Shown: positions 13,032 to 54,769 of the stretch, in pieces | Position numbering within the stretch: the stretch's first letter is position 1 | Layout: each line of letters opens with the position of its first letter | NCBI RefSeq assembly: GCF_023055435.1 | Contig: NW_025963791.1 | Span: forward strand, 16,430,001 to 16,494,000 | DNA length: 64,000 nt | Direction of reading: 5' to 3' | Origin: Haliotis rufescens | Lineage: Eukaryota | Made by a program: the position numbers and the translations under genes | The notes under the pieces: generated by a model | What the model was told of the DNA's origin: nothing | Databases searched by the model: none | Seen by the model: only the letters and a program-made list of their open reading frames with translations

Positions 13032-13274
13032 TCATGCCGGCTGGCCTTTTGGCCCAGGATGAGACTCCTGAAAGAAATGTAAAGACGTATTTAATCTACA
13101 AAAGAAGAGAGAAAATATATTTGAGAACCGTGGACATGTACATATCTAGTAAGATTCGTAGTTTTCAATCTGATTTACAAAAGAACAGAGTCTGCTTAAT
13201 TACGTCAATTAGATACACGTTAAAATTGTACGGAAATGAAACACGTAAATGTGGAAGCGTTGCAGAAAAAGATG

Positions 13275-13408
13275 NNNNNNNNNNNNNNNNNNNNNNNNNN
13301 NNNNNNNNNNNNNNNNNNNNNNNNNNNNNNNNNNNNNNNNNNNNNNNNNNNNNNNNNNNNNNNNNNNNNNNNNNNNNNNNNNNNNNNNNNNNNNNNNNNN
13401 NNNNNNNN
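13275..13408. other. Assembly gap (N-run)
   Basis: Ns in the sequence. Confidence 1.
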
Positions 13409-14458
13409 TACCCTCATGCTGTTTAGTTGGCAATTCCATTTCAGCTCAGTATCAGCCAGCTGTAAATACATGTACATCTACAGTGCTATTGTAAACAGAT
13501 GAAATGAAATTTAACTGTGACACGGTAGTCATTTGCGATGCAAAATCGCTGTGCAGAAAAACTTCCTTACAGCATTGATAACACTGACAGAAGGAGTGAT
13601 ACATATATCAAATAATTTAATCATTATGTGAGTGTTTGTATTTGTTAACAGCGTTACAGGTACATTATTATAGCCTGTAAAGTCTGACACGCAGTGATGT
13701 AACGGAAATACTGTCCCACACGGTGTGTAATCTAACTCAGTCGGTAATTCTGATCATGAGACCACCGTGAGGTGATCACATGATCAGACAGGTCAACCTG
13801 TAAACATGTTTAAGTGTAGGAGTAAATACAAATAATCAAAGCCAATAAAAAATCAGTCAGATTCTGCTTGGAGTAAAATTAAAGTAGTGTCAAAGATTGT
13901 AAGAACAGATCACTGAAGATCAGTGACGACACGCGGTGAAAAGTGTATTCATGTCCCCTTCTACCGGTAGCAAACTATGCTATCCAGTACAACATGTAAC
14001 CCAGTAACTGACGATGTATATAAGTAAATATTTACAGTTCTTATACAAGTGAACATATACAGTTCACATCAAATCAGATCATAATTATTACTACATACAC
14101 ACACAATCGTTAATTTATCATGAAGATTAATATACATATAGTGACATTTCGGACAGAGTGAATCTAATACTAGTGTGTTAGGATCGCCAAGCATAACTAC
14201 ATGTACTCCACCTTATACTTTATTCATATATAGTTCCACTCATCTAATAACCAAGTTATCACACGCTAGTTCCCTCTTTACATGATATATTCAGTCAGTT
14301 ATTTCCTCTTGTCATACCTATAAGTCGCAGTTTAAGTATTGAGCAAAACTGTTAAAGTCAATAACATGTAAGACAATTCTCCGATATCCTCATGTGATGA
14401 GAACTAGTAAAATTGTATTTATTCCAACAATTGCATGTTTGGGACTTATGGCTACACA

Positions 14459-28389: not shown

Positions 28390-28900
28390 ACGTCGATATG
28401 AAATGCGGTCCTGGGCCCAATGGCTTCACAGCAGAATTATTAAAATTCTTTGGAGAGAATGAAAAGTATTCAATACCCACACAAGTACGGGTTAGTCACA
28501 TGCATTCAAAACGAAAATAGAAGTAAACGTGGCCTATATCCCTGATAGATGTGTTGTATTAACTACGAACAGAATATAAGCGATGTTGACAAATATCAGG
28601 GCAGAAGAACATATATTTCTTATCTGGACGATTTATGTCGATTTATTACACGTTTAGGTTATTAAATAATGCACGACTAAAAACACATTTGATACAGTTG
28701 ACTTGCATTTTATGCATTTGCTTGTCATGTAATTTCAACATTGACTTTTCTTGTCAGAATCAAGAGTGAGTTATGTAATTATTACAGAGGTTCACATGTC
28801 TATATCTTTGTAATCTAAATATACACAGTCAAACATCAACTTTGGAAATAAAACATAAGTAATTTTACATACCTTAACTGGCGTATATGTCAAGCTTGGC
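28390..28900 (+). mobile_element. Highly decayed L1/Tx1-like RT fragment
   Basis: GPGPNGFTAELLKFF resembles L1-type PGPDGFTAEFYK. The remainder is heavily mutated. Confidence 0.4.
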
Positions 28901-29507
28901 TATTTAATTATTAAAATGTAAACTATTCTATTATAACTATTCTAATGCAAAGCATGATCATGAAAACAGTACAAATATTGTGTGAGCTCCATGTATTGGA
29001 ATAGCTTCGTTTGTTGAGGTAAACATCCTTGGTTATGGATATGGTTCGATTTTCTATTTGGACGTATCCCTTCACCTAAAGGCTGTAATTACTGTATTGA
29101 CTAAAAGATGCATTTTCCGCAACTACCAACGCAGATGAACTAAGCTCATACATATTCAATAAATGCGTCAAAACCCTTTCTATAATCATCAGAAATCATT
29201 AATAAGATATGAATAAACATTGCTGCCTGTTGTTAAATAATGTCGGATGAGTAGGATACCAACATTGGTGCTCTTTAAATGAATAGTTTGAAAAGGGAAT
29301 TGACAATCTGACTTCACAGAAATTGAAGGCACAAGCTTGCTTTCATAGAATGCCAGAGAATGATCAGTCTCGATGATCTGCAGAAACAGATTCCACTGGG
29401 CGTAAAATACAAAACAATAGCGTTGCAAAGTATATGACTGAATCACTTAAAATCAGTGGTAACACCAGGTGTTGGCGAAAAGGTGAGCATATCCTGCCCC
29501 ACCAAGG

Positions 29508-32500
29508 TCAATCCTTTGACTGCTCAGTTTGCATGTAGAATTCTGCGTTCGCTCTCTCGAATACATCTAGTGAATCTTCAAGTTGTTGCTCCCCTTCGGC
29601 GAATATATCATCATTGGATTCAATCTCACAATCAGCAGAAAGGTACTGATATGGGTCTTCGTAACCACTGACTGCGTTGTTAGATTTGACAGTTCCACCC
29701 CCATCTGCAAAATGAATATACTGTGCAGCTTATCAATATTAGAATATATTTAAATACCATATACTAGTATTATTCACATTTCAATGTACATCTAGCTGTA
29801 CCCATTGCAGCGGACATAATATTTACGCACACCATTGTGGGATTTGCACAACACATTCTCAGGTCAGCCATATCCATGTGATTAAGGATATATGTCTGCG
29901 TCAAGCTGATCAGGTAAGACTCTTATGTGGAGTAATGGCAGACAATGCTTCATTATTTTGACAAGTATATTTTTAATATAGCTACGTATCTCAAATTAAC
30001 ATCTCGTAGGCAAGACAGCTTCCAAAACATATTATATAACGGTGGACCTATGATTATTAGTAGTTATGATCTAATTACCTTCATATGGATCACCATAACC
30101 CTCTTCATCATATGAAAATAAAGAAAAGTATTTAGATTCATAACACGATTGCTCATCACGATATGGCTGAAATATTGCCGATGTGACGTAAAGCATTAAC
30201 TCACTCACTCATAACACGATTGGTTATTACAATAAAACCATTTATTGCATTTTATGAGTCTCTGAAATAAATGAAAAGGTTCAATGTTTCAGCAGACATC
30301 GAACGTATTTACTATTGGGCCGTTAAACCGTTAACATATACGCGTTGATGCAGAACGTTTCCTATCCAAAAACGAGATCAGTAAAATTGCTGGGAATAGT
30401 TTCGTACCTGGATCTTCTTCTATTTCATCCCAGATGTTTTCATAATAATAATATTCTGGAAGAGAAAGCGTATTAATTGCCATTACAAAACACTGACTAC
30501 CATGTCCAAAGTACATGGAAATAAAGAAAATAAAAGAATCTGTATTTAACCATGAACTTAATTTGAACATAGAAACCGCACAATTCCTGATATGTAATTC
30601 AGTAAGTGGAGTACAATTGAGCAAGTTTTGATTGGGTTGCGCTTTCAACTAGTACCACGTGCGAGTCTCATCAGGTCACAACTGATGAATGGACATGAAG
30701 TTGTAACGTATAGTTACTTGATATCATGACAATTGGGGAATACCATGATGTCACAACACCAAGGTGACAATGGACAAATAACTTACGCCTTTACATTTAA
30801 CTTCGGCGCAATTCATGATTGAAATGTTGCTCATTTTGAAACAATGTAGGTTCATCATGAAAATAACTATACGTTACAACTTCATGTCTGTTAATCATTT
30901 ATGGCCTGATGAGACTCGTATGTGGTACGAGTTGAAAGCCCTTTGTAAGGTAGCTTCATGTTTGAGCATATCCTTAATAACCATTTTTTAAACTGAGAGT
31001 ATGCACTTCTACCTTCTGTGATATTCATTGCAACAGAGCTCTAAGATCTTTTACCCTATCAAGTATCCGTCTCTTAAATGATTGTAAATTTCTGAAATGT
31101 TTTCGTCGCTCTGTTTGTCATGTGATTATATGTTTAAAATCTGTAAGCACTTGTACATATGTACAAAGAATTCCTTTGCGGCCGGTGATAAAGTTTTGTC
31201 ATTGTCATGGTCATTACGTACCGTGACTTTCGCCATCGTGTGTATCTTCACCTTATGAAAGGAAATATATATATTTCATATCAATATGTTAAAGAAACAA
31301 AGACATTTGAAAAAATGTAAAGCATACTCAAAAACTAAACATTTGAATGTGAAAGCCAACATGACATTCATCGTAGTTTTAACAGGTACATGTAACGTGA
31401 ATCTAAACAAATGAAGTGTTGCATACTGTTATGAAGAAGATGAATGAATGGAAACTTAAACAAAGCAGTGCATGGAATTCGTGGTGCTAGACATGGTCAT
31501 GACTGATCCGTGTTATAGTCAGATGAACATACCATTCGTTATGATATGAATGTAAAAGTTCAGACTTGCACGATTTAATATGAAATAGCATGGTTCGTCT
31601 TGATTGGGAAATACATTCGAAAACATCACATTTATTAAGCTGTACTAAGACATCAATAAAATCAATATCAACAGATTCCTTGACAAATATTAAAAAAAGA
31701 ATAATTATCTGCGCATTACAAAGGTTGAGAGGAAAACGCGAATCATAACGCAAGTGAGGCATTTTCTTTAATTGCTCGCCAAATATAAGGTAAATCTTGT
31801 TCTTAAATGATTTCAAAGCTGATCACATGGATTGGAACGCTTCAGCGCATACCTTCAGCTATATACACGGGCATAAACGATTCAATTATTGTTGTTTTTA
31901 AATGAGTGTTGATTCATCCCACTTTCAACAGATTTTCAGTGACTCTCATGTTGGGTTAGATATGCCTTCACTAGGCGGCAATAATGCATTCGTTATGCAT
32001 TAAATTATTCGTTCGAAATAACTTGCACAGTGTTATGAACGTCTGTTTGAAACGCGTTCCCGTTACTAAGCGCATTTACGTAAAATAAAAGGGTTAGTGC
32101 TATAAACACCGGAGTATTGTGAAAGGGTTCAATACTCTTTCAGACGTCACATATATGATATCTATGTTTGCGCAATACTTTACATATAACGTCATGCTGC
32201 TTACCTGTTGTGTCTATATGCTGTCTAATTTCCCGAAGATTGACACTATTATCCTCCTCCAGGCCTTTTCCTGCAAAGGTAATAACATACACATAACAGA
32301 GATATTTCTAGATAACCCTGTCCGTTAGATAACCCGAACATTTAACACCTCACGCTTCGATTTTAAATTCAATTTAGCGCGGTTAAATCTGTAGGTAACC
32401 AAGCTAAACATAGAAAACACAGTGTGTTTCTCTCCATTCTACCATGACAAAACCTAGCGCAAACTCATTTACGGAAATATTGATTGACTCCAATGTTTTG

Positions 32501-35500
32501 AGTGGGTTGTGGGTCTGAATAAAATAAAAACCGATACTACCCTTTAAACAAACTAGGACGTTTCCGTATGATAAGATAGTTTGTTTTCATCAATATACTG
32601 GCATATATGACAAGCACTGAAAGGGTGTAGCACAGATACATGTACATGTACTTCGTAAACCAAAATGAAGGCAACCCTTGAAAGGTTTGGCCCTGCGTCA
32701 CTATCATGACGTCACTATCATGACGTCACACTCCTCACTATGACACAAATATCAAGCACTCTGTTGTCCTCAGATTTGAAATAAACTTTCTTAGTTGAAA
32801 AGCGTTTTGGCACACGTACTTTGAATATTGTAGTAGCCTAGAGTTTGCACTTTGTAACCTATAATGTTTTTTATAAGGTGTTTTTTTGTGAAACCTCTGA
32901 TTCACCAGTGTCGAGTAGTTTCCTAATTCGTTGTATCCGTTTAATCCATGGCTATGTATATCATTGACCTAAAATTGGACAAATACATTTTAGGTTTGAC
33001 CAAATATTTATTTCATAAGCCTGTATGGAAAATACACCATGGTTCTGAAGCATTATAGCAGTCATGACTACACCAAACACTAAACCTGCCAAAGGGATCA
33101 ATGTGCAATTAATAAAAGAGAATCGTGATAAAACATCCACTTTATAATCAAGGTTTTCCTCAATTCTGATTCATGAACTACTTACGCTTGTCCTTTCTCT
33201 TTATGCATAGGATGCAAAACGTGAGTTTCTTTGCCAAACTTCCAAGTCTCCACAGGATCGAGAACGGTAAAGGAAGTGGTGGTTTTCTGTCATACTCAAC
33301 CATTAAACGACACTTTTGCCAGGCCCATATTTCATCAGCTTTCTGTCTAACATCTTCAAAGATGTGGCTGAAAAAGAGGTTCAAAGACGTAGAATTGTTG
33401 TTCATGAACGAAAACATATGAATGATTCAAAGGGTGCAATATAGTATCAGTATAGTTTAAGGGCTCATTTTTATTACTTAAATTATTCAACTGTTCTACT
33501 TCAAGAATTTCATCGGGCACCTTACAGTATGAACATTAAGACATAAAGGAAGACTATTGCCCATGACATGAGCGATCACAGCATCAGTAATATAAACGCT
33601 ATTAAGGAATTTATATAGAACATACTTGAAATGTCTCAATATATCGAGATTGATCACAAACACAAAACAAAGCAGTGTTAGGCAAGGTCTGGTACTACGA
33701 GTAACATGTGTCATAGGGATTGCAAATGTAAGCGACACAACTCTTTCGATAATCAAAAGAAATCCATTGTACGATTCCGACTAAATCATAAGCATGTGTT
33801 TGCGAACGGGTGAGGGTATCCTGCCCCACTCGCATGATTATTGCAATGTGACCAATGGAACACCAGGTGACCGAAGTTTAACTCGCACACCAAGACACAT
33901 TTAACCAATGTATCATTATCAGTCCACAAGTAACCATGTAACAAACTGAAACGTTTGTGTGAAAAAACAGATCTACTATGTGCCATACAATGGACTTGCA
34001 GTGTGGTTACTAAAGTGCCAAAAATGTCAGTGACTAAGGAATCTGATAGCTAGGTTGTTTGATGAGTAAATATGAGTCTTAACCGACCTATTGGTATCAA
34101 CTTGTAAATAATACATACTTGAACAGTGCAATCACAATGTTCAAGAGCAAAACGTGCGTCATGATCATGTATACTGCGAGCATTAATGGCACCCATATTC
34201 TTCCAGCGTTAGGTATGCAGCTCCCATCGCATTTCTCGCCGACGCCTGGAAAATAGAAAATATATCACACAACTAGTCATCTACACTTTCTGGTAATATT
34301 GGAATTATTAGAGTTTCGTCTTATCATGCTTCTTCAGTAACTGGACTTACAATCTGGTAGCGTCTACTTTCGTATTATCAGATGGTCACATTCATATTCC
34401 ATTCAGTTTTCAGCGTAGTTTCTTCACCTTCGTTAATAAGGCGATGACAAACATTATGTCAAAATGGGAAGATCAATCTTCCAGAAACGTGGAATGACCA
34501 TTCTGTTCATACTTAAACCAACATTTAACTGAAAATAGCGATAACTATTCTATTTATAGGAATGAACAAACACACCCTTGATTTCATCCAAAAAGAGCTC
34601 TCCGAATATCTGCCAAAATCCCTTGCCAAAGTCAAAGACGAACGATGGGCTGTCAAATATATTTCGGCCGGGTGGGTGAAGGATCGCTTCAGAGGCAACG
34701 GCATAGGAACATATGGCCACGAAGAAGATCACAAGGAAAGGGATGAGATCCGTAACCTGGATAGGTTGTAAGGTGGGTTTCATATGTACAATGTGCATTG
34801 AATTGTTTTATTTTGTTTGTTTGTTTGTTTGTTTGTTTGTTTGTTTGTTGTTTAACGCTGAACTCAGCAATATTCCAGCTTTATGACGGCGGTCTGTAAG
34901 TAATCGAATCTGGACTAGACAATCCAGTTTCTGACATCATGAGCATCGAACAACGCATCTGGGATTCGATGACATGCATCAACCAAGTCAGCGAGCCTGA
35001 CCACCCGATCTCGTTAGTCGCCTCTTACGACAAGCATAGTCTCCTTTTACGGCAAGCATTGGTTGCTGAGGACCTATTCTACCCCGGATCTTCACGGGTC
35101 ATTGAATTGTAACCTTTTGAATAAGATGTAACCCTTAGAATAAGACAGTATTACGTGGTCCACCGAAAACGTAATTAACATGACAGGAGTATAATAATTC
35201 TAAAGTAATGAGTACTTTTGCCTAATATATCGCAAATCTTAGAATAAATGAAACGTAGCAATAAGGCGACTTGTTTTCACATAAATACAACGTGTATGCT
35301 TTACGTTGTTTTTGCATAAAGGACAATATTAATAATTTCAATACTCTGAATAGAGAAAAACAAATGTTAATTACACTAATGTCCATAAAAAGGTCACTTC
35401 GTGTCATCACTTCAACCGCCTATTGCCAAGAATTCAGGATCAAACCTGTTATCATTGTTAATCATTGTTAATTTGAATGATAACAGGATGCAAATGCAGA

Positions 35501-38500
35501 TTTTAAGAAAGAAACCCATTGACTAATGACTAAAGAGGGACTATGCTCCGAGCAAATATTGTTATTAGTGATGTGTCGAACTAAGACATGATCTATGTGT
35601 AATCAAGGCATTCAAGACCAGATAATCTTATAGACATAATCAAATCTAACAAAGAGGGTTTTGAATTATTTGAAGCAAATTGTCAGATACTGACTTGCAC
35701 GAGACTAGTCCCCCTTTAAGGACTTGCATTAAAAGAAAGTATTTTTCAAAACGTGATATAGTACCATTCTGAAGACCATGTACAGCATGGGTCCGATTGA
35801 CTTGCTGGGCGTACAGGCTTGAAGCAATCTCCAGAAGAAGAACATGAAATTGATGCTGAGGCAAAGCCTCCCGTAACCGAACAGGTGCATTTCCTTGTAC
35901 TCATTGAAAAACACAGGCAATATACGTAACGTGTACCCAATGATAAACCCAATAATACACAAGCTGTCAAGCATGTTCCATTTGTCCTGGTAATATATTT
36001 TAATGTGTTTGTTTAGCAACCACACCGCTGACTTCAGACGGTTCAAACACCCTGAGTTTGGTCCACGGTTCAAGGCTATGAATTCGTTTCTTTCTACTGC
36101 AAACTGCAAAACCTGCAACATATGGGATGACAAAATCGTAACCAAAGTTAATAACTTCGCAAGTAAATTATAGTACTATGAGAGTCAACAAAAGTTATGT
36201 CTATAATATCAATAAAACATATCATCTATATATCTTTGTCTAAAAAGCTGTTGGTACATGTAACCTTCATAAATAATTAAACTTGGACCTTTGATTCTGT
36301 CAGCTCATTTTGTATCTCATATCATAATTCTATTTCACTCCGTGTGTTAAATGAATTGTTTAAATAAGTTTGGAAACAATGAGTTAATCGTGACAAAACA
36401 AATACAAAACAGATTTTGGAAGGAGTGGTCTTCACGATCGTTTGACGTCTGATACATATGAAAAAATAGCGAAAAATAACTAAACTCGATATGAGTATTT
36501 GTCTTTTCTGTTCCCACATAAGCTAAAGGTACATACATTATAACTGAATCTGACACTGAGAACCAAAAGGGCCTTTGTTGGTATGTTACTGCTATCGCGA
36601 AATCAGAAGTCTTTTACATCTCATATGGTCAAAAGCATTTGACTCAAAGATCAAACCAATATTTATGTAATGAGCAGGAAAGATATAGGGATTCCCAATG
36701 TTGATGTCACCAAGGAGCATACATAAAACTTGTACATATTTATTAATATTTATCTGTAAAAAGTAATGTGATGTACATGTATGTGGTTTTATCCAATATA
36801 TACACACCGAGATACATATACATAGCTAAAGCTTTGGCTAGTGTTGGATAAATCAATTTTGTCTTCCCGTTGATTTTGCTTTGTGTGGTATTTTAATTTG
36901 TCTGCAATACATTTTAAGTTTTTGAATGAATCGAGCAGATTATTTTTTAATTTGTTGTGTCAACAAAGTCATGACAGGTACAAATCTTTGACAACTGTTT
37001 ATGCACCAATCAAGAGTCATGTAGGGTTGTACACTTTTGCAATAATTAGAATATTAGAGTCAAAACCCTTTCCATGTTCAAAAGAAATCTCTGCTAAAAG
37101 CAGAGTCGATTTATGATTCTGACTATATCATGACCATGTGTTTATTAATCACTATCAAATAGTAATGATTTATTGTGAGGAAGAAATACTGGTACACAAT
37201 AAGCAAAATACTTACGACCGTGTTCATTGTTTATCAATGTATGTTGGTTGTATTATTTTCTAAGGAATATGTAAAAACACAAACAAATGTCAGCAAGTAA
37301 TCTTTAACTTCAGCACTAAATATATCTGATATCTACTTGTATTGCAACTTTGAATGCATTGTTATTCGCTATATGGACCAGTGTTCCTATGTACAATAAG
37401 AGCTATAACTTGACATTTTACTTGCTCAGATAAAATGGCCAGGAGAAATGGTTATGACATAATAGCAATGCTTATGATACTAGTTAAGTCGTTTATATTA
37501 TGAAAAAGGAAATACCAGTACCTGAATCATCTCTTCAAGAAGGAAGGCTGACATCCAGATAAGAAGAGGTATTTCCCACCTTCGCTTGTAGTCCTCCTCC
37601 AGCTTGTTCAACAGCAAGTGCGCATACAAGCCGAGGAATACACAGTACACGATCTGAAGTACAATTAAGCCAACACACTTTCAGTCCACAACAAACAATT
37701 GTACATATATGTTTTCGAAACTGAGGGTAATTGATGTTTTTTGTCTTCTTGGGTGGGTGATCAGTAAGTGATTCAATGAGTTGATCAGTGAGTGAGTGCG
37801 TGAATGAGTGAGCGTGCTTACAACTTTCATAAAATCCCCTAAACATGTGTATGGTGCTGAGAGATCATGGATTATAATCCTATACTAGCAGAAGTGGGAT
37901 TGAAAGCTGATCCTGGTATGACGGAACATTGTATAACACCTTTTGTGTAACATCATAAATATTTTTCAATTTTGCCGAAACACATGTTGCGGTTTTTGGT
38001 TACAGTTGGAATGTCAATAAAGGGTTGTTATTGATCCTTTATGTTATGTTTCTATTTGTACTCTGCGTAGTATTTTCATATTTGTCCCCCTTCTGAGTGG
38101 AAAGTCTGTTCACGATAAGGCCTAAATCACATATATATTGGACTAACCAGATTCAAAATGACCTTGACAATTGGTGTACTGTAAAACCTTCCAAGTCGTC
38201 CGCAGATTCCGACCCTGGGCGAGCTGCAAAGTGCATATTTTTAACACATTAAATAATAAATAGAAGCGCCCATATATTGACATATTTTGTTTTACAACCA
38301 ACAAATTAGTGAACAACCTCCTTAGCAAAAGAGAATATAAAAGATACAAATAAATGTATAACCTTTCTCTATCCACAGGGTCCGAACTGTATTTTCCTCC
38401 AATCGTTGTCGGGTTCGGAGTCTTCTTCATGGGTTGTGTCCCGATGAGGATCCACATCAGAAAGGGAAGAATGGCGCAAACAACAATCTTAAAAAAATCG

Positions 38501-41500
38501 GGACTTCTTTCAAATTCTTATTTAAAATTGATTAAACATTGTAAATGTACCATATACAGTAATACACATATGCTATAATGCACTGATCTAGTAACTATTC
38601 ACATTGAAAACATGCTTCTGTTCATTAGTATTCCCCAAAAAGAATGTCCAATTAGGATTATATTACTTACTCTCCAGACCCGTGAAGATCCGGGTTAGAA
38701 TTGGTCTTCAGCATTCCATGCTAGTCGTAAGAAGCGACTAACGGGAACGGGTGGCCAAGCTCGCTGACTTGGTAGATGCATGTCATCGTATGCCAATTGC
38801 GTAACTCGACGCTCATGATATCAATCACTGGATTGTCTAGTTCAGACTCGATTATTTACAGACCGCCGTCATATAGCTGAAATATTGCTGAGTTTGGCGT
38901 TAAACAACAAAGAAACAAGTGCAAAAGTGAGCGTGGCTCACTAATACCTCCGACCCGCCTAGTGTGTCAGTAGTTACAAATTAAATAGCTAGGGTAGGGT
39001 CAGGGTTTGAAAAATTCATAAAAAAATGGAAATTAATAAAAACATTTTTTTCTTTCTTTTGACTGCACCCCTCCATATGACACATTATATGTACTAAGTT
39101 TGAGATGAATCCTCTAAATAGTGTAAGAGAAATCGCGCGGACAAAGTTTTCGGACAGACAGACAGACAGACAGACAGGCAGACGGTCGGACGGAACCTTG
39201 GTATAACTATATACCCCCGACATTTTGTCGGGGGTATAAAAAAAGAAACAACCTTACTCTCCATGTTGATGTTTTCTTTGGAATATCTCCCATCCACTTT
39301 GAGTACGTGTAGTATGCCATCCCTTCACTTATGAAGATGCTGTTATTCTGTTTTTCAAAGGCAAGGGCAAGAAAATCAATGTTCCAACAATTCGTTGATA
39401 TGTTTCTTTCCACCAAATGAACAGTTTTCTCCTTGTCATCTCTGTAGCATGCAGCCAGTGTTCCGGTGGCGTGCGACCTATAGAATCTAGAACAAAAGCA
39501 TTTGTTACAACTATTGATCATCTGGTATTTTAGGAATCCTCATACGGTCGAATGTAATTATCAACTTTATGGCAGAGGTGTTCCATTCCGAGTTACATGA
39601 GTGTGAAATAAAAGCTCATTATACATGCAGTACATGGAAAGTGAAGTTTATAAATACAATGACAACATGAATATGACTTACTTGGAACTTTCTTCTCTCA
39701 GAGCTTTCTTTTTGTTATTGAAAGTCCCTTGTGCAATAGTGTCCATTATAGTTCCTGCAGCCAGTGACGCGGTCACAAGATCCTTACAAACGTAAAAACA
39801 TGTAAGATGAGAAAACTCGCGGTTCTCTAAATTTGTACTCGTTCCCGTCTATAATATTCATATAAAATGTACTATTTACTGATTTCCAAAATCTATCTTA
39901 ACTATTTTAGACAGGAATATCGCTTAAAGTATTTTTAAAAAAACCAACACGATACAATGTAGTCCACGTGGCCTTCAAAATGCAATTTTCATTACATACT
40001 CGCAAAGGATCGATGAATGTTACTCAAATGTTTCAAAGGGTATTGCATCTTGGAGATTCACATTTGTCACTTACCTTGCCCCGTTTCCAAAAGGCCAGGG
40101 CCAGAGAGTTCCTGTTTGAGAGGACTGCCCACACGAATAACCTCCGATACGCCTCCTCAACTTCCAAATCATCATCAATCTGGAAAAAACAAAACATTCA
40201 TAGTCATAAGAAATCCATTGGACGATTCTGACTTTATCATGTGATTATCACATTCAATAGTGATGATACCAGGTGTTCGTGAAAACGTGATCGGATTCTG
40301 CCCAATCAATTGCACCCATCATAAACACATGCAAAGACATTTGTTACACCGGATCATATGAGACAGAGGTAATAGGGGAATGTAATTTGTCAACGAAGTG
40401 TGATTATGAAACCAATATGTCTAAAGCATTCTACAGCAAACACTAGTACATAGAAATATGACAAAGTGAAATTCTCAGCAGGGGCAACACCTGATGTGTT
40501 TAAACTCTTACATTGTGTTTCATGTGTCCATCGTCGATGAAACAGCTGAATGGCAGGTAGGCGTATGTAATTCTTCGCATCAAAACTGCAATGGGATCGT
40601 AGAGACGTTTCTCTGTTTCTGAGGCCTGGAGAAAAACAAAAGAAAACTCTCTTGAATTACAGTGACTACCTTACATTACAAATTACTATTGTTTTCATGT
40701 GAATAAATATATATAGGCCTGTATTGTATGATGACCATGTGTTACGTCCACGCATTTTAACTAATCTTAATACGCCTGCAAATCTACTTTTAAGTGCTCA
40801 TAAACTTATGTGGAACAATAGCGTATGTCACATCTCAAGTCCCATTGATTTAGGCACTGATAGGTTCCTGATAGTTTTACGGCGATTATCACCGTGTCGT
40901 GTAATGTGTAATCGAAGCCTTTCCACGCCTTTGACGGGATCTCCTGTAAGAAATATAACGAGAAAGTGAAAGCACATGAGTCATGCAGAGCATGAGTTTT
41001 CTATTCAGTCTTAGATCTATTGTGTATTTGTCACTCAACGTGATGACCATAGATATAACAGCTTTGTCCCAGTCTTTTAGAGGTTTGCCAATAGAAAATT
41101 AAAGCAAATATCATCTGAAGTTTACTGAGAAAACAATATGTGAAATGCCGGACTTCCTCATTGATAACATATGTTAAATTTGGAGATATGACCTTTAGAA
41201 GTATGCATCCCCCTGGGCACCAATTGTGGTTCCCTCGTTGCTGATCTATAATTTGGCCAAGGAGTTTAGCTTCACCAATCAGATATACATGTAGTTTAAT
41301 AATGGTCAAACAGTCCCTTTCACTAATCAACACACAAGAGCTAGAAGTAGAATAAACGAGTGAAATATTTAGCTCTATGTCAAAAGATTCAGTGTGACAA
41401 AACACCCTTCACCAGATTGTATGACAAGAGAGATTACTTCAGCTTTCCAATAGTCAACTTTTCGTTTATGTCCAGTAATATTCCAGCAGCTCTAGCCTGT

Positions 41501-44500
41501 AGTGTCACAACTTTTGAGGTACATTCAATCATGTTTCTTCTACGTCATATGCTTCATTCTCAAAAAGTTGTTTGATCAGTTTTAAAACTTTCAAGGCCTC
41601 GATATACCTTCCAATATGTTTAATAGTAGACATTTGGATGTCTGATACAGTTCCCTAATTTGACTTGTACCATACGTTTAGTTCCCGTGTTTTTCAGGTG
41701 AACAATTTACTTGCCTTTGCATGTGTTTGTTACGATGCCATCGGTGGCCCATTGTACGCTCACCTTTTGGTGAACACCTGGTATGAAAACTATTTGATAG
41801 TGATTCATAAATATTTGCTTAATGGGGCACGGATGGCCCAGTCGTCTAAAGGCGCCGCTGTTCGCTGTGTAGAGATATGTCTTTTGGGCAGGCCAGAAAT
41901 ATATGGTCGTTTGTTCGAATCCTGGTTCGCCCGAAATATGTTTCTAGGTTTTTCAGCACCATGTCCATGCTCATGAGTATAATCAAAGTGGTAAATGTCT
42001 GAGACCTGCATCATTTGGGGCTTTCCTCCCACATGAAGCTGACACGTCGTGATATTACTGGAATATTGTTCATTTCACTCACTAAATGTTCTGCTGATGG
42101 TAGGAATCGTACAATGGACTCTGCTATTAGCAGAGTTTTCTTATGATAATGGAAATGGCTTATCACTTTAATTTGTATTAGTTTTATTGCAGTAATGCTG
42201 ATTTTGGGCGTGTAAATCGTATGTGTTTCGTAGGATGTGATCCCTACCTGTGTTGATGTCTCTAACTCTGTTGCCTCTTCATGACCACTTTCCTGTAAAA
42301 TGAACATTTTGCTTGTTAATAGAAATGCTTTGCGCGAAATTGGCATTACGTTGGTTGGTTTGTTGTTTAACGCCGCACTCAGCAATATGGCATTAAGTAT
42401 TGAATATAACTGCATGCACCTTAAACGCCACTAAGTAGTTGTAGATTTGTAATGTGTCTTAAACAATGTAACATCTTTGGTCTTTAAATCCAAATAATAT
42501 TTAAAAATCACATTTAACTCATTAGTATATCATTATCGTTACATTTGATCAACGCTTTCATTTCCATATTCGAAAAAAAATTACACACCTCATTTACAAA
42601 GCGAAATGCCTTCGACAGCTCAGTCTGGGCCTGAAATAAGGATATATCTGTCTAGAAACGTCAAATATTCTGCAGGTCATGTGGTTTTACTCAATATGTA
42701 AAATATATTTATTAGCACAAAGCTCATGAATGAGATAATATGAAACATAAACAATTACACCAAACTATTGTATGGTACTTATCCAATATGTAAATGCGTT
42801 TTATATTTCCAGTGTTTCCAACAACTTCATAATAACATCGCTTTGCAAATGACATTTCCGATATATAACATGTCTTAAGAATTACTTTCTATCATCATCG
42901 GTTTAATGATGCCTCTAAGTCGCGCGTCTCACTTTGAATACTCTCAAATTATTTCCTAGATGTTGATGGTTGTAATTTGTGTCTGAGGCCATCTGTATAG
43001 AGATCTTGACGTTCACGCAAGAGTTGTTCTTTCAATAGGGCAGGGCATGCTTACACATGTACCTGTTTCATAAACACCTACGGGCATCATTTCTGAATTT
43101 TAATATGATTTTATAATGAATTTGTTGCACTACCTAATGGATGAGTGAGTTGGGTTTAACGTCACTTTCAACGGTATTTCTGTTATGACACCGCATGTCA
43201 GGTTAATGTGGGAGAAAAGCGCGAAGTGATGCAGGTCTCAGACGTTTACCATTTTGGTGCAATGGGTATGGTGCTGACAAATCTAGTGAGTTAGTTGATT
43301 TAACGCCGCTTTTAACTGTATTCCAGTTATATCACGGTGTGTGGACGGAAAGCCCGAAGTGATTCAGGTTTCAGACGTTTACCACTTCGGTGAATCCCAC
43401 GAGCACGGGTATGGTGCTGACAAACCTAGAAACATAATCGGGGTGAACCGGGATTCGAACACACGATCATAGGTTTCTGGCGTGCCAAAGACCCGCAACT
43501 CGACACAGAGAATCGCGGCGCCTTAGTCGACAGGGCCACCCGTGCCCCCTGCACTAATTAATTAGACAGACATTCAAGGTATTAATAGATACCCATATGG
43601 GTTGAGTGAGTGAGTATGGTTTTACGCCGCTTTTAGCAATATTCCAGCAATATCACGGCAGGAGACACCAGAAATGGGCTTCACACATTGTACCCATGTC
43701 GGGAATCGAACCCGGGTTTTCGGCGTGACGAGCGAACGCTTTAACCACTAGGCTACCCGACAGCCCCATTACACATATGGAAATGGACAATGGAAATACT
43801 ACTATATTTTAGCCCGGTGTAAAGGGACTTGTCTGCTAGTTCCTAAGGTCCTGGGACACTGGTTTCAGGGATACATTGTTCTAACCGGAAATCCAGGCCT
43901 GGTATACATGCGACGAGGACAATAAGTACTGGAGGCATGATCTGTCCTTTTACAACAGCCAAAGTGTCTGATTAGGGAACACAATCCGTGCAATATTTAC
44001 ATAATGATGAGATATATTAGTGTATCTCATGTTCAGGATGTACGGGATTTCCCGCAGCATCCCCGTGGTCTAGAGGTATCGTGAAGACGATTAAGGGGTC
44101 CAGAGAATTGACGGTAAGTTATAAGGTGAAACTTTTGAGTTCGAATACCACAAGTGTGAAAATGAAAAGAACGTACACATTTGATTTGACTATAATACGT
44201 ACTGAATGTTTCATGATTTCATGTTTTATAAAATATGTCTTGCTTTTTCTGTAGTTTAAAGGTCGTAAAGAGCGATATTCACGCAAACTGTATTTCTTTG
44301 CGGATGTAACTACTTGTATATAGATACAAGGGTGGAGAGGCAAGGTTTACAATAATTGGCCACCTATTTTACCCATGCCACTGACCCGCAATATCAGAGA
44401 AAAGCGGCTCATATTACTTGGGAAAAGTATATCCATAATATTGTGTGTATGCCAATGTTTTACATGTGTATGCAATTGTTTATTTGTTCATCAATTCATA

Positions 44501-47500
44501 CATATGAAGAATTGTTTTGTGACACACTTATTGTTTTATCTGTTGATTGAGCATGGTGCTTTTTAGATTCCACATCGATGACAGAAAAATCCCAATTACA
44601 ACGAGATACTAGTATATGGAGAAAAACAAAAGATTTTGGAATTAGAATTATTATTTTTTCTCTGGATACTCCAATATCTTACCATGTTTTCATCATATAC
44701 AGAGTGATTATCAGTAATAATCCATGAATGTAATTATACTCATAAAATTTACATTGTATACTGTAGAACATACCAAACTGAAGATAATAAATTACCTGAC
44801 ATTCTTTTAGGATCTTGGTAATCTTACTGGTTACTTGGGCCTTGGTCTGCAATAAGAAGAGGTTGACTTTGTGAATCGCAATATCATGTTATGTCCAATA
44901 AATAAATCAAATGAATGGCTTAGCCCAACCGTCATTTGAAGCCATTTTGAAAAAAATAACAGGATAACCGTCCGTGATTAGGCTGAGGGTCGTAAGAGTA
45001 ATGCGACCCTATTTAATCGATTCAGCACTTACCTGGTTCAACATTTTGTCAAATTAATTGAAATCAGATGATAATACTAACGCGTTGTTGATACCTACCG
45101 AGGAATCTTTGACAATGTCAACAACGGTCTTCTTCATGTCTTCATCTGGCAGCTGAAACATATCCTCACACATGTATACATACTTTTCACAAAAGTATTC
45201 ACATTATAAAACGCAATAAGTAGATGCTGTTGGCGCTTTCATTTATACTGCCTAAGAAAGTCATAACCCCAAAATTATATTTTCAGTCTCTACATTGTCT
45301 CGCCCTCCCTCTTTTCAACATGTATGCAAATTATTTGTAATTCACAAGAAAACTATGCATAATTGTGAATACTGTGTATGCATAATAAATTCAAACATGT
45401 TCTGGAATATATGTACATTATTTGAACCAAATTTTCCTTATTTATTACCGGTAGTTTACATCAATCACACACATACCTGGAATATCCGAAGTTTGTTTAG
45501 TCTTTTGATGTCCATTGTCTACAACAACAAAATCAGGTACTGCAATAATGTCTATTGAAACTCTTCACTTCATGATACAGATTTCTTATAGAAGAGCTTT
45601 GAAAAGCCATTCAGGTCTAAAGATGAAAACAATAATTCAAAACAGCATGCTTAATATATAAAAAATCAACGATGGCTTCATACAGTGTTTCTTGGGAAAA
45701 GTACTGTAGAGTAGAAACTGTATAATTTAATGAAAAAATGTATTGTGGTTTACTCTTAAGATTAAATGGGATCTCTTTGGTTACATACAAACTTCAGGCA
45801 GTGGAGAAATCCGTAAAATCTCTTGAGGACCCCCTTTCTCTGAAAAATGGCATTGTTGGTGATAATATGAACATGACATGACGACGATGAATAATTGTAC
45901 ACACTCATAAAGAGTAAACAAGCCACATAGAAAACCCTCAAGAAGGATCATACGTCAGAATGCTACATAAGTGTATTGGTTGGTATTGCCTAAGCCTTTA
46001 AAATGGATCTTAAATGTACATAAAATCACATCAAGACAACAATGCTTTGTGTTTATTAAAATATAATGTCACGTGAATAGTAGGTTTGGCAATTAAACTT
46101 CCACCAAGACATATTATATACATACCTCCCAACCTTTAAAGATGTACTCAACAATCAGTCTGAGTTCCATGTCATCCTAAACAGTAGAAAGAAATGCAGT
46201 GTATTTCCATTCTCTAATATCTGCTTGAAAATTAAATTGATAAGTCCTTTAGATCAGTACTAACACATTTAGATGGTACGTTTATGACAGAAATTGCTTG
46301 CTTTTGTTTGAGTGAGTGAGTGAGTGAGTGAGTGAGTGAGTGAGTATGGTTTTACGCCGCTTTTAGCAATATTCCAGCAATATCACGGCGGGGGACACCC
46401 GAAATGGGCTTCACACATTGTACCCATGTCGGGAATCGAACCCGGGTCTTCGGCGTGACGAGCAAACGCTTTAACCACTTTACCACTAGTTTTGTTTGAT
46501 GACAGATACATTTAACTGAATGCTGTAAGAACACACATAGAAACGTTACCTTGGTTTCTGTGAACATCCGAGCAACATTATTTGGAAGATCTGCAATTGT
46601 CTGAAAGATTCATAGAAATAGTCATTACAGCTAGCTATTGTGTGTGTTACACAGGGTACTGCTATATAAGTCATTCTTGTTATCTTCGCCTAGGCTAGTG
46701 ATATTACTTACATTATAAACATATAGCGCGTGTTATTAAATGAAAAGTGAGTTGAATATTCTACCTTGGAGTACAGTGCAATGAGGTCGACACTCGTAAT
46801 GTCAACAAGGCCATAATCAAGCAGGAACTCCACACACTCGGTCTTTTCGTGAACCATGGCTTCCACAAGGATTTCTTGGACAGTCTCAAAATCTGAGAAG
46901 AAAATAGATTAATAGTCTTTTTTGTCCATGTTGTTCTCAATAGGTAAGACCAATGTCGATATATCAGGACGTCAATGGGGCTAAATGCTTCACTGATAAA
47001 GTCTTTATTTGGAAATCTACGATCTGGTTTTAAAGAAGATATCAGAAGATTGTTTGTTGGAAAAGTTTTTGCAAAATTCAAGTTCTTGAGAAAACATAAG
47101 CAGACCCATACAGAGACCAGAAATAAAAATACAAAATCTTAAAACATCCCCATTTACAAAGGGGTGCTTAAATATAGCCCATAACATATTTCTTATGTAC
47201 AGTTTGCAATATTTAGTTCAGAGGAAATGAAAGTTTATGTTTCCAATACGTCAATCTTAACGTAAGACAACCTGTGACATTTTGGTGCATTCTTGTCTTT
47301 GAGTCGACAAATTTCTCAATTTTGTCCTTCGTGTGGCGGTTGTAGACAGGCGAAGGAAGGTATTCATCAACTAAGGCGATAAGGTCTTCGTTTGACTTGC
47401 CTGCAATCAAAGACTTTCTTTAACTTCATTTCAGAATAGTTAGTTGTTACTAGTCTATAAGACAAAATGGCACAACAGATTTGTAACATGGCACTTTTAT

Positions 47501-50500
47501 GTCTCATGTGGTGCATTTTATTCAGTCGCTGCAGCGACACATGGGCGATGTCATCAGGACCAGGCCATGACATCAAACATAGTTCAAGTTGAGACCCGAA
47601 TTTAAGGCTTCAGATCAGAACAATGATAGGATCCTGATCACTTGGTTTGCACTCACGGATGTGTCGCATCAAGGTCAGTTAGGGGTATATAGACCAGCTT
47701 TACTTTAAACGGGACAAAGAACGCCTACGTTATTTGTTGGATAACACATAGAGAATGCATATATTTCAAAACTATCTGTTTGGGATCTGTATGACAGCTA
47801 CCTCTGTCTCGATTTTCTTTAAATGGAAAAACAATCTTATTATTTGTTTGTAACCTTGTCAAGGGGAGATGATACCTTCTTGGAGTGTTGTAGTGTAACC
47901 TGTAATAAGGGGAGACAATTCCGGATGGACAAGCCCTTCCATTTTGTGTATGGTACAAGGGTCACTGTCATTTGTATATTTCTTGACGGTAGCATCATGT
48001 TAATAACCACCAAATTTGCAGTTGTCAGAATGTGCTTGAAGTATTTCTATACCAACGCTTTCTTTCCCGAGGGACCTGTTTGTCATAATCTTAAGTTCAT
48101 GTCAATTAATAAACTTGTTACCGCCAACGTATCTATTGTATTACGTTATTTAAGTTGATAGCTATGGCAACAATTGGTAACCAGTAACAACAAAGATTTA
48201 AAAGGGGTCCTTAAGTTTGCTGCTGTTATTTTTAGTATATGCTAGTATATGTTTACGTACTCTTAGTCATGGCGGAGATAATTCCCTGAAAGAGATTAAA
48301 GACCCCTTCAACAACTGTGATGCGATCTCTTCTCTGGAGGCACTGGATGACGATCTGGACATGCTCGTCAGTTGTGTCTCGCCCGCCAAACTGCTTCACG
48401 AGTCCCTCTTTTATTTTCTTCTTTAGTGTGTCGTCAATAACGGTTCCATTCCTTGAAAACCATGACATCATATACATGATTATATGTGATTATTAATCAT
48501 AATAACACATACATGAACACAGCGCCAGCAATGAAGAACATTGTGCATTTACTCATATATTAGCATTGTATGTTGCATAATAAGATTTTAACAAACGTTC
48601 TTTCATGGTGAGACATACATACATAATTGCGTTGATATGTTTATCCATACCCTCCACTGTTTCTTCCTCTATTTCCACGAGACATTGGTTTAGATTCTTC
48701 AAATGCAGTACAAATCACGTCAGCTATGCCCCCTCTTTCCTACAACACACTCATCCGATTTCAATATGTACTAATGGTCGTATTTTATTCAGAAAAGCAG
48801 GACAATATATTTCATTCTAAGCATTTACCTTGATAATCACAACAGGGATATTTTCCTGGATGTGATTTTTTAGTCCTTCCAGGTGAGACAATTCTCCCCC
48901 ATGTAGGATGGCTACTGCAGGAATGGCGCCAGAACCTGCAGTTGACAAAAAGTCAAAATGGGCATTTACAGATATATTTGGTGTAACGTACTTTGGTATC
49001 CATGTCTCCGTAAATGTTTCTGCAAGCAAAACATGTAAAATGTCAACCAAAGTCAGGATATGAACAAATTCAATAAACACATTGTCACATATTTGAGACC
49101 CCAGAGATGACAGCAAAATATTTTCAAGAATAAGATCCTCCGTGTTGATCCACCTTTAAGGTACATATACTTACAGTGTCAAATTTTCGAAAATAGACGT
49201 ACCCATTTCCACTTCTGTCCCAGCCTCGGATGCTGCCAGACTTGCAACCAGTCTCGCGCGGAACGACATGGTGGACAAATCACAAAGATATGGCTGACGT
49301 GTTCCATTATCAACCAGAAACATGTGAGATACATTTGTCCCAATCTGTTTTGGTCCTGTAATCGCCTCTGTTCCTTGTTTGAGAAAGTACGTCATCTTCC
49401 TGTACCCATCCTCGTCCTCCTGCACCATAGCAGGTATACATTGATGTGGCAGTTATACAACATGTGGACACATCTTGCACGTAAAACCATTGTCAAACTT
49501 GAAATGGTAAGTCAAACCTTCTGAGATTAAACTATGTATTCCTAATATAAGATATTGGATATGACATGTAAATGATAGTTTTCTATGCGCGGTTTGCGGA
49601 GAACAAATAAGTTTTTTGTAGAAAATATAGATTAGTTCAGCTACATTAAGCAAAAGGGCGACTATAGTATCTTGCGCATACGTTTGTTTCATTAAGATCC
49701 CTAAATTCGGTAAAACTCTTGACATACCTGCATGCCTTTGAAAACATCATGGTCACCCAAGATACCCCAAGATGAACATCCTATGGATGTAATACGTTCC
49801 AGCGACTTTGCACCAACAAGGTGCTCTGAGACTCCATTGTGTAAGCCGTCAGATACGATGCAGAGATCTGTTGCGAATTCAAAGTCAGATGAATAAACAC
49901 TCTTTAGTAGGACCAATTAAAAGTAAAAACCATGAGTAAAACAGTATATATGCTGTGCAGAAAAATTGTAAAATTTATATATCTTATACATTTATAAACT
50001 AATGAAATTATATTTTTTTAAATAAAAGCGACACATCCCTTTCAATATTCATAAGAAATCCCTGCCAAAAGTAGAATCGATTGTATCATTCCGACTTGAT
50101 AATGAGCATGTGTTTATGAATCACTTTCAAATAGTGATGATGCCAGGTGTTCGCGAAAGAATTCTCAAAATATTATGTTACTACTTTACACAATGTAACT
50201 GACGAAATAGGATAAGGGCCTTTGGCCTACTGTAAATGTCCAACGCTTTGGAATATTGGTACGAAAATGATCAAATATGTTTAAATGGCTGACAACTAAC
50301 CTTTTGTCTTTACACGTGAAAGTTTAGGTCTTGTGGCATGATCAAAGTTGTGAAAAGGGACGATTTTTCCACTTTCAAGAGAAACTCTTGTTATGAGTCC
50401 ATTACCCAAGATGCATTTCCCCCATGTTAGTAATGTCGTTATCCCTTAGAAAATTAGCCTAGATTACAGACTCCATCATGTTCAGATATAAACTAAAATG

Positions 50501-54225: not shown

Positions 54226-54270
54226 GTAAAGAGCCTGGCTTTGGCACCCAAACACCTCCACCAGGACGTT
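54223..54270 (-). other. Gene A start exon (5'UTR, ending in the ATG)
   Basis: tttcag|AACGTCC...GCCAAAGCCAGGCTCTTTACATG|gtatga. The paralogous exon at 13067-13029 also ends in ATG|gtatga, and both splice in phase 0 to xPWY. Confidence 0.7.
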
Positions 54271-54769
54271 CTGAAACGAGTTATTAATACATGTATGTTG
54301 AATATGTGGTAGATGTCAGTTTCGGGGCCTATGACATAGCATGTGTCTTCATGATGAAACCACAAGATGACCACAGGAGGACGTCATGAACTATCAATAA
54401 CGAGTGTGTCTAGATATGGCACCATCTCAGAAAATCGGATTGTAGATGGATAACATGCCACTAATTAGAGTTTTATCTGAGTTCAACATATACAACAGAC
54501 TACCTACAATGAATTACTTTCTCATTTGTCGTCATTGTGTAGGTAGATGAGTGAATGTTAGTCGGCTGTGTCAACTGTCTAACATAAAGTTGAAAACGAT
54601 TGATTGCAATGACTGCACATGTATATCTGAAAACTAAAACCAACATACTTGAAATATAACCTGTCCTTACCACGTTTGGGGGCGTCTTGAGACGAGTCTG
54701 CACCCTCTGGATCAGACATAGCGGCCATCAGTACCTTAACATTGATGTTATTAATAGAATGATATTGAG

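What the first reader, a model, noticed from the sequence alone, without database searches (positions are those of the whole stretch)
29508..32270. Acidic tyrosine-motif cassette built from phase-1 micro-exons in the channel's C-terminal tail
Seen: between the TRP helix and the rib-helix motif LDVFERANAEFY, symmetric phase-1 exons of 66, 30, 48 and 24/33 nt plus the last exon encode ..EYYYYENIWDEIEEDP..EGYGDPYE..GYEDPYQYL... Established: acidic-context YENI (YxN) and YxxP are typical tyrosine-kinase/SH2 docking motifs (Grb2- and Crk/Nck-type) and are not a standard TRPM feature. Inference: a receptor-like phosphotyrosine signalling tail grafted onto a TRPM channel and tunable by exon skipping, possibly in immune or haemocyte signalling.
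Basis: partly seen in the sequence, partly recalled or inferred. Interest (0 to 1): 0.7.

Follow-up and report, generated by a model that had tools for sequence, protein, structure and literature searches.

The report
Abalone ion channel's acidic tyrosine loop
An abalone TRPM-like ion channel has a long acidic loop, built from four small spliced exons, that likely tunes gating by charge; its tyrosine docking motifs occur only in this one gene copy, and the channel and its three neighbours end before the coiled coil that most related channels carry.

Summary
The exons are real. Spliced contigs from 6 runs join the TRP exon, exons of 66, 30, 48 and 24 nt and the last exon, and RefSeq XP_048248277.1 (Haliotis rufescens) has the same tail. 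The 33-nt form has no AG acceptor, and no skipped form was seen. Phase-1 symmetry is forced, because the exons arose inside one phase-1 intron. The region is a predicted-disordered insert in the cytosolic TRP loop. It is unusually tyrosine-rich (9 Tyr), but YxN is at chance level (p=0.39) and YxxP x2 is marginal (p=0.016). Sister paralogue B has 0-1 Tyr; paralogues C and D have 9-12 Tyr and no YxxP. What the clade keeps is an acidic loop with 5-7 aromatics and a lengthened polybasic S2-S3 loop beside an intact Ca2+ site. All 11 clade proteins also stop 15-18 residues after the rib motif, so the pole coiled coil is absent. Best reading: a charge-based gating regulator (0.45). A true SH2 docking tail (0.25) is not excluded. 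Tuning by skipping and an immune role have no support.

The parts
29508..54728 (-). Gene A, TRPM-like channel, coding span (RefSeq XP_048248277.1, 1389 aa)
   Evidence: exon map by tblastn; Pfam SLOG, TRPM2-like, Ion_trans
37522..37542 (-). End of S2 with Ca2+ ligands E986 and Q989 (nvTRPM2 E893, Q896)
   Evidence: alignment; residue numbers; places; ligands named in PMC5976436 section 9
35981..36109 (-). Lengthened basic S2-S3 loop (44 aa, net +4; +5 to +9 in paralogues B-D)
35966..35980 (-). Start of S3 with Ca2+ ligands N1035 and D1038
34580..34615 (-). Pore helix and filter, nearly identical to nvTRPM2 (FGELFLDEI against YGELFLDEI)
33186..33367 (-). TRP-box exon with W1222, E1232, TRP helix 2 and basic end (KRKDKR); phase-1 donor
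32205..32270 (-). 66-nt exon, phase 1-1
31222..31251 (-). 30-nt micro-exon, phase 1-1
30408..30455 (-). 48-nt micro-exon, Y1302-Y1305; YENI at 30444-30433; WDEI follows
30079..30102 (-). 24-nt micro-exon, Y1319 (YGDP; YDDP in run X1) and Y1323; weak acceptor; the 33-nt form has no AG
29508..29704 (-). Last exon: Y1339 (YEDP, 29663-29652), Y1343, Y1345, acidic run, terminal helix, stop TGA 29510-29508
29511..29591 (-). Predicted terminal helix holding the rib motif LDVFERANAEFY (29570-29535); protein ends 17 residues after FE, no pole coiled coil
   Evidence: PSSM 15.1 bits, 0 of 1000 shuffles; helix at pLDDT about 75
28800..29507 (-). 3' UTR, at least 700 nt, continuous with the last exon in contigs
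   Evidence: X6 record 14 spans 28800-29690 unbroken; X1 record 2 spans 29384-29704
131..13439 (-). 5' part of tandem paralogue B (XP_048248272.1); its tail lies left of the window (stop at G000:C13:16417820)

Best explanation
The four small exons and the start of the last exon encode an acidic insert, predicted to be disordered, in the cytosolic TRP loop of an abalone TRPM-like channel that is likely Ca2+-gated, and the insert likely works as a charge-based regulator of gating rather than as a conserved SH2 docking cassette. Shown: exon structure and splicing; the insert's place; all five Ca2+-site residues and an nvTRPM2-like filter are kept; paralogues A-D all carry an acidic insert (net -21 to -60) with 5-7 aromatics in its last 60 residues (Tyr in A, C, D; Phe/Trp in B); the same proteins have a long basic S2-S3 loop; all stop after the first half of the rib helix. 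Inferred: the insert grew by exon gain inside one phase-1 intron; it would bind the basic S2-S3 loop and the basic end of TRP helix 2, next to the Ca2+ and PIP2 sites, and so set their sensitivity; Tyr phosphorylation of gene A would add charge and may give a gene-specific input; without the pole coiled coil the tetramer would rest on the swapped membrane domains and the MHR rings.
For: Low confidence over the insert (pLDDT under 50 at residues 1293-1303 and 1315-1355) with a helix at 1363-1388. TRP-W to rib-FE distance 151 (A), 170-263 (B-D), 106 (Gigantopelta) against median 64, maximum 90 in 77 of 119 other TRPMs with a recognisable motif. Composition kept while motifs are not: B 0-1 Tyr, C/D no YxxP. 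S2-S3 loop 35-45 aa, net +4 to +9 in 10 Haliotis clade proteins against median 20 aa, +1 in 75 others (one of them a Haliotis rubra fragment of the same kind); Gigantopelta has a weak loop (+1) and a weak insert (-7). The S2-S3 linker forms the Ca2+ site, a lipid sits beside it and the TRP loop runs on the periphery (PMC5976436). Sister paralogue P0161 has one phase-1 intron here. A sister lineage carries an FN3 domain in the same loop, so the loop tolerates inserts.
Against: No contact between insert and basic loop was tested. The co-gain is one event on the Haliotis stem; across 11 related proteins the charge correlation is not significant (rho -0.46, p=0.15). Gene A has the least basic loop of the Haliotis set and the densest Tyr cluster (9 against at most 7 in 149 outsiders). 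Both YxxP survive in the runs that can be read, one as YDDP and one through a synonymous Tyr change, which fits selection on the motifs. Channel activity is untested; TRPM8 without its coiled coil does not gate properly (PMC9805079, passages).
Confidence: 0.45

Rival explanations
1. One reading: in gene A the insert is a phosphotyrosine docking platform. A Src- or Syk-type kinase would phosphorylate Y1305, Y1319 and Y1339, and Grb2- and Crk/Nck-type SH2 adaptors would bind, linking the channel to receptor signalling.
For: Motifs match Grb2 pYxNx and CrkII pYxx(P/L) (PMC10279719). YxxP x2 p=0.016. Highest Tyr count in an acidic window among 164 proteins. Run X1 has YDDP at Y1319; run X10 has a synonymous change in the Y1339 codon; no change of a readable Tyr in 4 runs. 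TRPM8 is phosphorylated by LCK at C-terminal Y1022 (PMC9167300). The loop is exposed.
Against: YxN is at chance level; YxxP is not significant after 5 motif classes (about 0.08). Absent from sister B (0-1 Tyr); C and D have no YxxP and YxN only in D. Orthologue depth is only 2-3%, and the letters of the YENI exon are not readable in the lay tables. No annotated orthologue of A was found in three protein searches. No skip isoform seen.
Confidence: 0.25
2. The insert is a largely neutral spacer. The TRP loop tolerates length, low-complexity acidic exons accumulate and turn over, and the tyrosines and motifs are incidental.
For: Exon number and length differ between paralogues (A 4 exons, B 3, C 5, D 4; C and D differ by one 78-nt exon). 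B carries a tandem EEP repeat of variable length. 3 of 7 readable last-exon differences are non-synonymous. Tails of A, B and C/D share only the rib motif visibly.
Against: All four exons keep their length in the runs that span them (100 letters between 29704 and 32203 in X1, X9, X10). The last exon differs less than the UTR in X1 (4/204 against 37/591, p=0.016; X7 p=0.11). Acidic and aromatic make-up is kept in all four paralogues.
Confidence: 0.2
3. The aromatic-acidic stretches are trafficking or turnover signals: YxxPhi (YENI, YQYL) for clathrin adaptors, or an Atg8-binding [WFY]xx[LIV] core such as WDEI, controlling where the channel sits. The motif definitions are recalled, not taken from a call.
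For: Gene A has 4 [WFY]xx[LIV] cores (1.79 expected, p=0.076) and 2 YxxPhi; all four B proteins have one core in an acidic setting.
Against: None is significant. C and D of H. rufescens have no such core and no YxxPhi.
Confidence: 0.1

Closest known systems
Nematostella TRPM2 (PDB 6CO7; PMC5976436) and beta-TRPM channels TRPM2/4/5/8
   Same: Best PDB sequence match (E 5e-67); SLOG, MHR, six-TM domain, TRP box, five Ca2+-site residues, similar filter; S3-TRP model aligns at Z 12-13, rmsd about 4 A over 215-225 residues.
   Different: TRP loop about 90 residues longer and acidic; S2-S3 loop longer and basic; rib helix cut to its first half; no pole coiled coil; no NUDT9-H domain.
Pacific abalone 'TRPM-like' clade (Kim and Sohn 2026, PMC12980990)
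   Same: Six Hdh-TRPM-like genes form a clade apart from alpha and beta TRPM. Hdh-TRPM-like_12 (1418 aa, best outside hit XP_041363917.1 = P0015) and _11 (1277 aa, high in gill) share a scaffold and by length look like gene B and a C/D type (matched by inference, no sequences given).
   Different: The main text has 0 hits for 'tyrosine' and 'tandem' and does not mention the acidic loop or a missing coiled coil in the passages read. No listed gene has gene A's length. Fig. S6, which draws coiled coils, is an image I could not see.
Tyrosine-phosphorylated TRPM8 (LCK, Y1022; PMC9167300)
   Same: Tyrosine-kinase control of a TRPM through its C-terminal region is known.
   Different: A single conserved Tyr acting through 14-3-3 and assembly, not a multi-Tyr acidic insert.
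Multi-YxxP/YxN scaffolds (p130Cas, paxillin, PEAK3; PMC10279719; LAT and SLP-76 recalled)
   Same: Several Tyr in a disordered cytosolic stretch matching Grb2 and Crk SH2 consensus.
   Different: Only three matching sites, in one paralogue, with no shown phosphorylation, binding or deep conservation.
FN3-bearing TRPM-like channels (P0019 H. asinina, P0021)
   Same: Same wider clade (100/98) and an insert in the same TRP loop.
   Different: The insert is a folded FN3 domain (E 1.2e-8) and the protein goes on past the rib motif.

Membership tests
TRPM channels (canonical alpha/beta architecture) | N-terminal SLOG/MHR region | tested here: met
   PF18139 E 2.3e-20, PF25508 E 9.7e-19
TRPM channels (canonical alpha/beta architecture) | Six-TM channel domain with TRP box | tested here: met
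   PF00520 E 2.3e-19; alignments; fold matches
TRPM channels (canonical alpha/beta architecture) | Rib (stretcher) helix after the TRP loop | tested here: inconclusive
   Sequence match of the first half (PSSM 15.1 bits, 0 of 1000 shuffles) and a predicted helix; docking not shown: 49 of 50 structural alignments stop by model residue 236 and the model lacks the MHR domains
TRPM channels (canonical alpha/beta architecture) | C-terminal pole coiled coil | tested here: not met
   Stop 17 residues after FE, continuous with the UTR in contigs; 11 of 11 clade proteins stop at 15-18. Filed as TRPM-like, not canonical TRPM
TRPM2 (ADPR-gated) | C-terminal NUDT9-H domain | tested here: not met
   No such Pfam hit; protein ends at 1389
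Ca2+-activated beta-TRPM type | Five Ca2+-site residues in S2, S3 and the TRP helix | tested here: met
   E986, Q989, N1035, D1038, E1232 align to nvTRPM2 E893, Q896, N918, D921, E1110 (E1232 by counting 20 residues from the last aligned column shown)
Ca2+-activated beta-TRPM type | Ca2+-gated cation current | not testable with these tools
   Needs patch clamp
Abalone TRPM-like clade (PMC12980990) | Branches apart from alpha and beta TRPM with other Haliotis TRPM-like proteins | tested here: inconclusive
Phosphotyrosine SH2 docking scaffold | Consensus YxN / YxxP in a disordered cytosolic region | tested here: met
   Y1305, Y1319, Y1339
Phosphotyrosine SH2 docking scaffold | Motifs above chance for the composition | tested here: inconclusive
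   YxN p=0.39; YxxP p=0.016 uncorrected
Phosphotyrosine SH2 docking scaffold | Motifs conserved in paralogues | tested here: not met
   0 YxxP in 10 of 10 other clade proteins; YxN only in the two D proteins, at another place
Phosphotyrosine SH2 docking scaffold | Motifs conserved in orthologues | tested here: inconclusive
   Readable Tyr codons kept in 4 runs at 2-3% divergence; YENI exon letters not readable
Phosphotyrosine SH2 docking scaffold | Phosphorylation and SH2 binding | not testable with these tools
   Needs phosphoproteomics and pull-downs
Alternatively spliced micro-exon cassette | Frame-preserving small exons | tested here: met
   All phase 1-1
Alternatively spliced micro-exon cassette | Skipped isoforms exist | tested here: inconclusive
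   None in the complete joint table (4 runs) or the 15 shown rows (43 hidden); one RefSeq isoform; contigs drop rare variants

The most novel reading that the evidence does not exclude
A gastropod TRPM-like lineage lost the pole coiled coil and turned its TRP loop into a regulatory arm. In gene A that arm is a kinase-read phosphotyrosine switch that both recruits Grb2/Crk-type adaptors and releases a charge clamp on the Ca2+/PIP2 site: a working TRPM channel without the umbrella shaft, doubling as a receptor-like scaffold.
Probability: 0.15. Interest if true: 0.75.

Novelty: new variant of a known kind. Interest (0 to 1): 0.42.

Why it matters
The coiled coil is held to be needed for TRPM assembly or gating (TRPM8 deletions; PMC9805079). 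Here a four-gene cluster, expressed and with intact pore and Ca2+-site residues, has done without it since at least the split from Gigantopelta, if that weakly supported branch holds. That offers a natural test of what the rib-pole umbrella is for. The loop also shows how exon gain in one intron builds regulatory tails: acidic in A-D, FN3 in a sister lineage. If gene A's tyrosines prove to dock SH2 adaptors it would be a new way to couple a TRPM to tyrosine-kinase signalling, but present evidence does not single that out.

Tried and rejected
33-nt exon form: no AG acceptor. No listed RNA holder was on record as RNA; the six runs laid are 'RNA?' by guess, and I rely on their GT-AG joints. Orthologue of gene A in protein collections: none; the 50% cluster search shows only P0001. 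First rib HMM was contaminated by three newly fetched clade proteins and was redone as a PSSM. Scan for a hidden pole exon downstream of A-D: nothing above 4.4 bits, but the held-out controls P0161 and P0025 also failed, so the scan is uninformative. Complex prediction of the terminal helix on residues 470-900: no verdict, score 0.00, alignment not used. ESM Atlas on the tail: best score 0.81, chance level. Run X7 has two contigs over the 48-nt exon with uneven depth; by my reading this fits two alleles better than skipping, since its upstream contig runs on into the start of the 30-nt exon, but it cannot be resolved. Earlier findings: none. Paper searches: abalone+TRPM+Haliotis+hemocyte 0 papers; TRPM+lacks+coiled-coil+invertebrate+C-terminal+truncated 4 papers, none on this by listing; six SH2 motif terms together 0 papers. 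Supplement search of PMC12980990 for three tail motifs: 0 hits.

Full report
Setting. The window is G000:C13:16430001-16494000. A search with the TRP-box exon returned a 100% match named by NCBI as Haliotis rufescens LOC124152055, XP_048248277.1, 1389 aa. This is gene A, minus strand 54728-29508. It has SLOG, TRPM2-like and Ion_trans domains and its best PDB match is Nematostella TRPM2. It sits in a cluster of four paralogues on C13: B (partly in the window), C and D.

Observation. I laid 6 of the 24 listed runs (six studies, six organism labels; all are contigs, RNA by guess). The three 3' joints appear in 4 of 4 runs in each lay, and the 30/66 joint in 3 of 4. X1 record 2 and an X7 record link the 66-nt exon to the TRP exon by their record positions. 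The 33-nt form lacks an AG. The stop runs on into at least 700 nt of UTR in unbroken contigs.

Skipping. No skip joint appears in the complete joint table or in the 15 rows shown (43 hidden). Gene A's cluster holds one RefSeq protein; B's isoforms differ by 1-2 residues only. Contigs drop rare forms, so skipping is not excluded. The symmetry itself says little. In sister paralogue P0161 one phase-1 intron separates the TRP exon from the rib exon, so any exon gained there must be 1-1, and every tail exon of A, B, C and D is. C and D differ by a whole 78-nt exon, which is gain or loss between genes. A link between phase symmetry and disorder is reported for human genes (PMC3632108, search listing only).

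Anatomy. AlphaFold2 on residues 1029-1389 gives a confident S3-TRP part that matches TRPM structures (Z 12-13, rmsd about 4 A, 215-225 residues), a low-confidence insert and a last helix at 1363-1388. The insert replaces the TRP loop, which in nvTRPM2 runs on the periphery of the cytosolic ring into the stretcher (rib) helix, followed by the coiled coil (PMC5976436, passages and section 9; bioRxiv 2023.08.26.554973, passages). A PSSM from 76 outside TRPMs picks LDVFERANAEFY as the rib motif (0 of 1000 shuffles; 0-2 of 1000 for the other ten clade proteins). TRP-W to rib-FE is 151 residues in A, 170-263 in B-D and 106 in Gigantopelta XP_041363917.1, against median 64 and maximum 90 in the 77 of 119 outside proteins with a recognisable motif. 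Among the 42 not counted are P0019 and P0021, which carry an FN3 domain in this loop, so long inserts are not unique to A-D. The five Ca2+-site residues and the filter are kept.

Tyrosines. The insert has nine (1302-1305, 1319, 1323, 1339, 1343, 1345). That is more than in outside linkers (p=0.012), and 9 in a 50-aa acidic window exceeds all 149 outside proteins (maximum 7; C and D reach 6-8). YENI and the two YxxP match the Grb2 and CrkII consensus (PMC10279719, passages). Shuffling the insert gives YxN p=0.39 and YxxP p=0.016 among five motif classes; the GY.DPY repeat is reached by 35 of 400 shuffles. Gene A is sister to B (97/88), and B has 0-1 Tyr in four proteins from four Haliotis sources. 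C and D have 9-12 Tyr, no YxxP, and YxN only in D. What all share is net charge -21 to -60 and 5-7 aromatics in the last 60 residues, Phe/Trp in B. In the runs, differences seem to be listed only about 31 letters or more from a piece end (my reading of the tables), so the YENI exon cannot be read. In the last exon the three Tyr are unchanged in X1, X7, X9 and X10, with one synonymous Tyr change; 4 of 7 differences are synonymous. X1 has YDDP at Y1319. At 2-3% divergence this is weak support. No annotated orthologue of A was found.

All 11 clade proteins (isoforms dropped) end 15-18 residues after FE. None of the 77 outside proteins with a recognised motif ends within 25 (shortest 27, median 140). 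That set leans to long tails because the PSSM was trained on them. 21 of 119 outside proteins have 100 or fewer residues after the TRP W; most are short fragments, but of the 17 printed four are 877-1211 aa long, so short-tailed TRPM-likes occur elsewhere as annotated. In P0161 the rib exon continues to a phase-2 donor and later coil-like exons; in A-D a stop falls inside the rib exon. Gigantopelta joins A-D at 98/71, which is not firm. TRPM8 lacking the coiled coil was not expressed in one study and formed tetramers that did not gate properly in another (PMC9805079, passages). The ten Haliotis clade proteins also have a long basic S2-S3 loop (35-45 aa, +4 to +9, against median 20 aa and +1 in 75 others), directly at the Ca2+ site.

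Mechanism. I commit to a charge-based regulator (0.45): the acidic, aromatic-dotted arm would bind the basic S2-S3 loop and the basic end of TRP helix 2 and set Ca2+ and PIP2 sensitivity, with phosphorylation as a possible extra input in gene A. The contact is inferred from co-occurrence in one lineage (rho -0.46, p=0.15) and is untested. Rivals: SH2 docking (0.25), neutral spacer (0.2), trafficking motifs (0.1). Tyrosine-kinase control of a TRPM C-terminus is already known for TRPM8 Y1022 (PMC9167300, passages).

What is known. Kim and Sohn 2026 (PMC12980990; abstract, passages, section 19, supplement table rows) describe six abalone TRPM-like genes outside the alpha and beta clades. Two lie on one scaffold, with lengths that fit B and a C/D type, and one of them is high in gill. 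The text has no hit for 'tyrosine'. Their Fig. S6 draws coiled coils and may already show the loss; I could not see it. Himmel 2020 (PMC7306681, passages) has no hit for 'coiled'. Searches listed no paper on this loop or on haemocyte expression; the library lacks most subscription papers.

Verdict. A real, expressed feature; a new variant of a known channel type. Interest 0.42.

Noticed in passing
window 23475-22675 (-): A 267-aa open frame between genes A and B with YTDTDSL and NNSVFGKT motifs, which I recall as B-family DNA polymerase motifs of Polinton or adintovirus-like elements. No relevant Pfam or PHROGs hit. Described only.
   Followed up: partly
window 20411-20725 (+): DDE_1 transposase fragment (E 6e-6).
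   Followed up: partly
window 11671-11856 (+), 5877-5710 (-), 28080-27790 (-): Short frames that look like Tc1-type transposase and LINE-tail remnants (recalled likeness; no Pfam hit).
   Followed up: partly
L016+L015 (G000:C13 about 26561250-26560860, minus strand; gene E): A fifth C13 paralogue also has a long exon before a rib-like motif (MGDFERSMGE), but it is Ser/Arg-rich rather than acidic; candidate exons follow downstream.
   Followed up: no
P0019 residues 1120-1202 (H. asinina), P0021 1117-1183: Fibronectin type III domain inside the cytosolic TRP loop of a TRPM-like channel; FN3 appears in the legend of Fig. S6 of PMC12980990.
   Followed up: partly
Gene A residues about 560-740 (window about 46600-40500): A stretch between the MHR parts that does not align to nvTRPM2 or TRPM4 and is encoded by many short exons of about 45-55 nt; B shows the same pattern.
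   Followed up: no
L012 (G000:C13 about 16497700-16495000): Array of about 163-bp repeats just downstream of paralogue C's stop, each with strong splice-like sites.
   Followed up: no
window about 30150-30211 and 34860-35000: Very abundant interspersed repeat fragments inside gene A introns, matched by thousands of contigs.
   Followed up: no
P0151 (Mytilus californianus, 1088 aa), P0048 (Dimorphilus, 1213 aa), P0127, P0156, P0079: Other TRPM-like proteins that as annotated also end near the rib position, on separate branches where placed: loss of the coiled coil may have happened more than once, or these are annotation cuts.
   Followed up: partly
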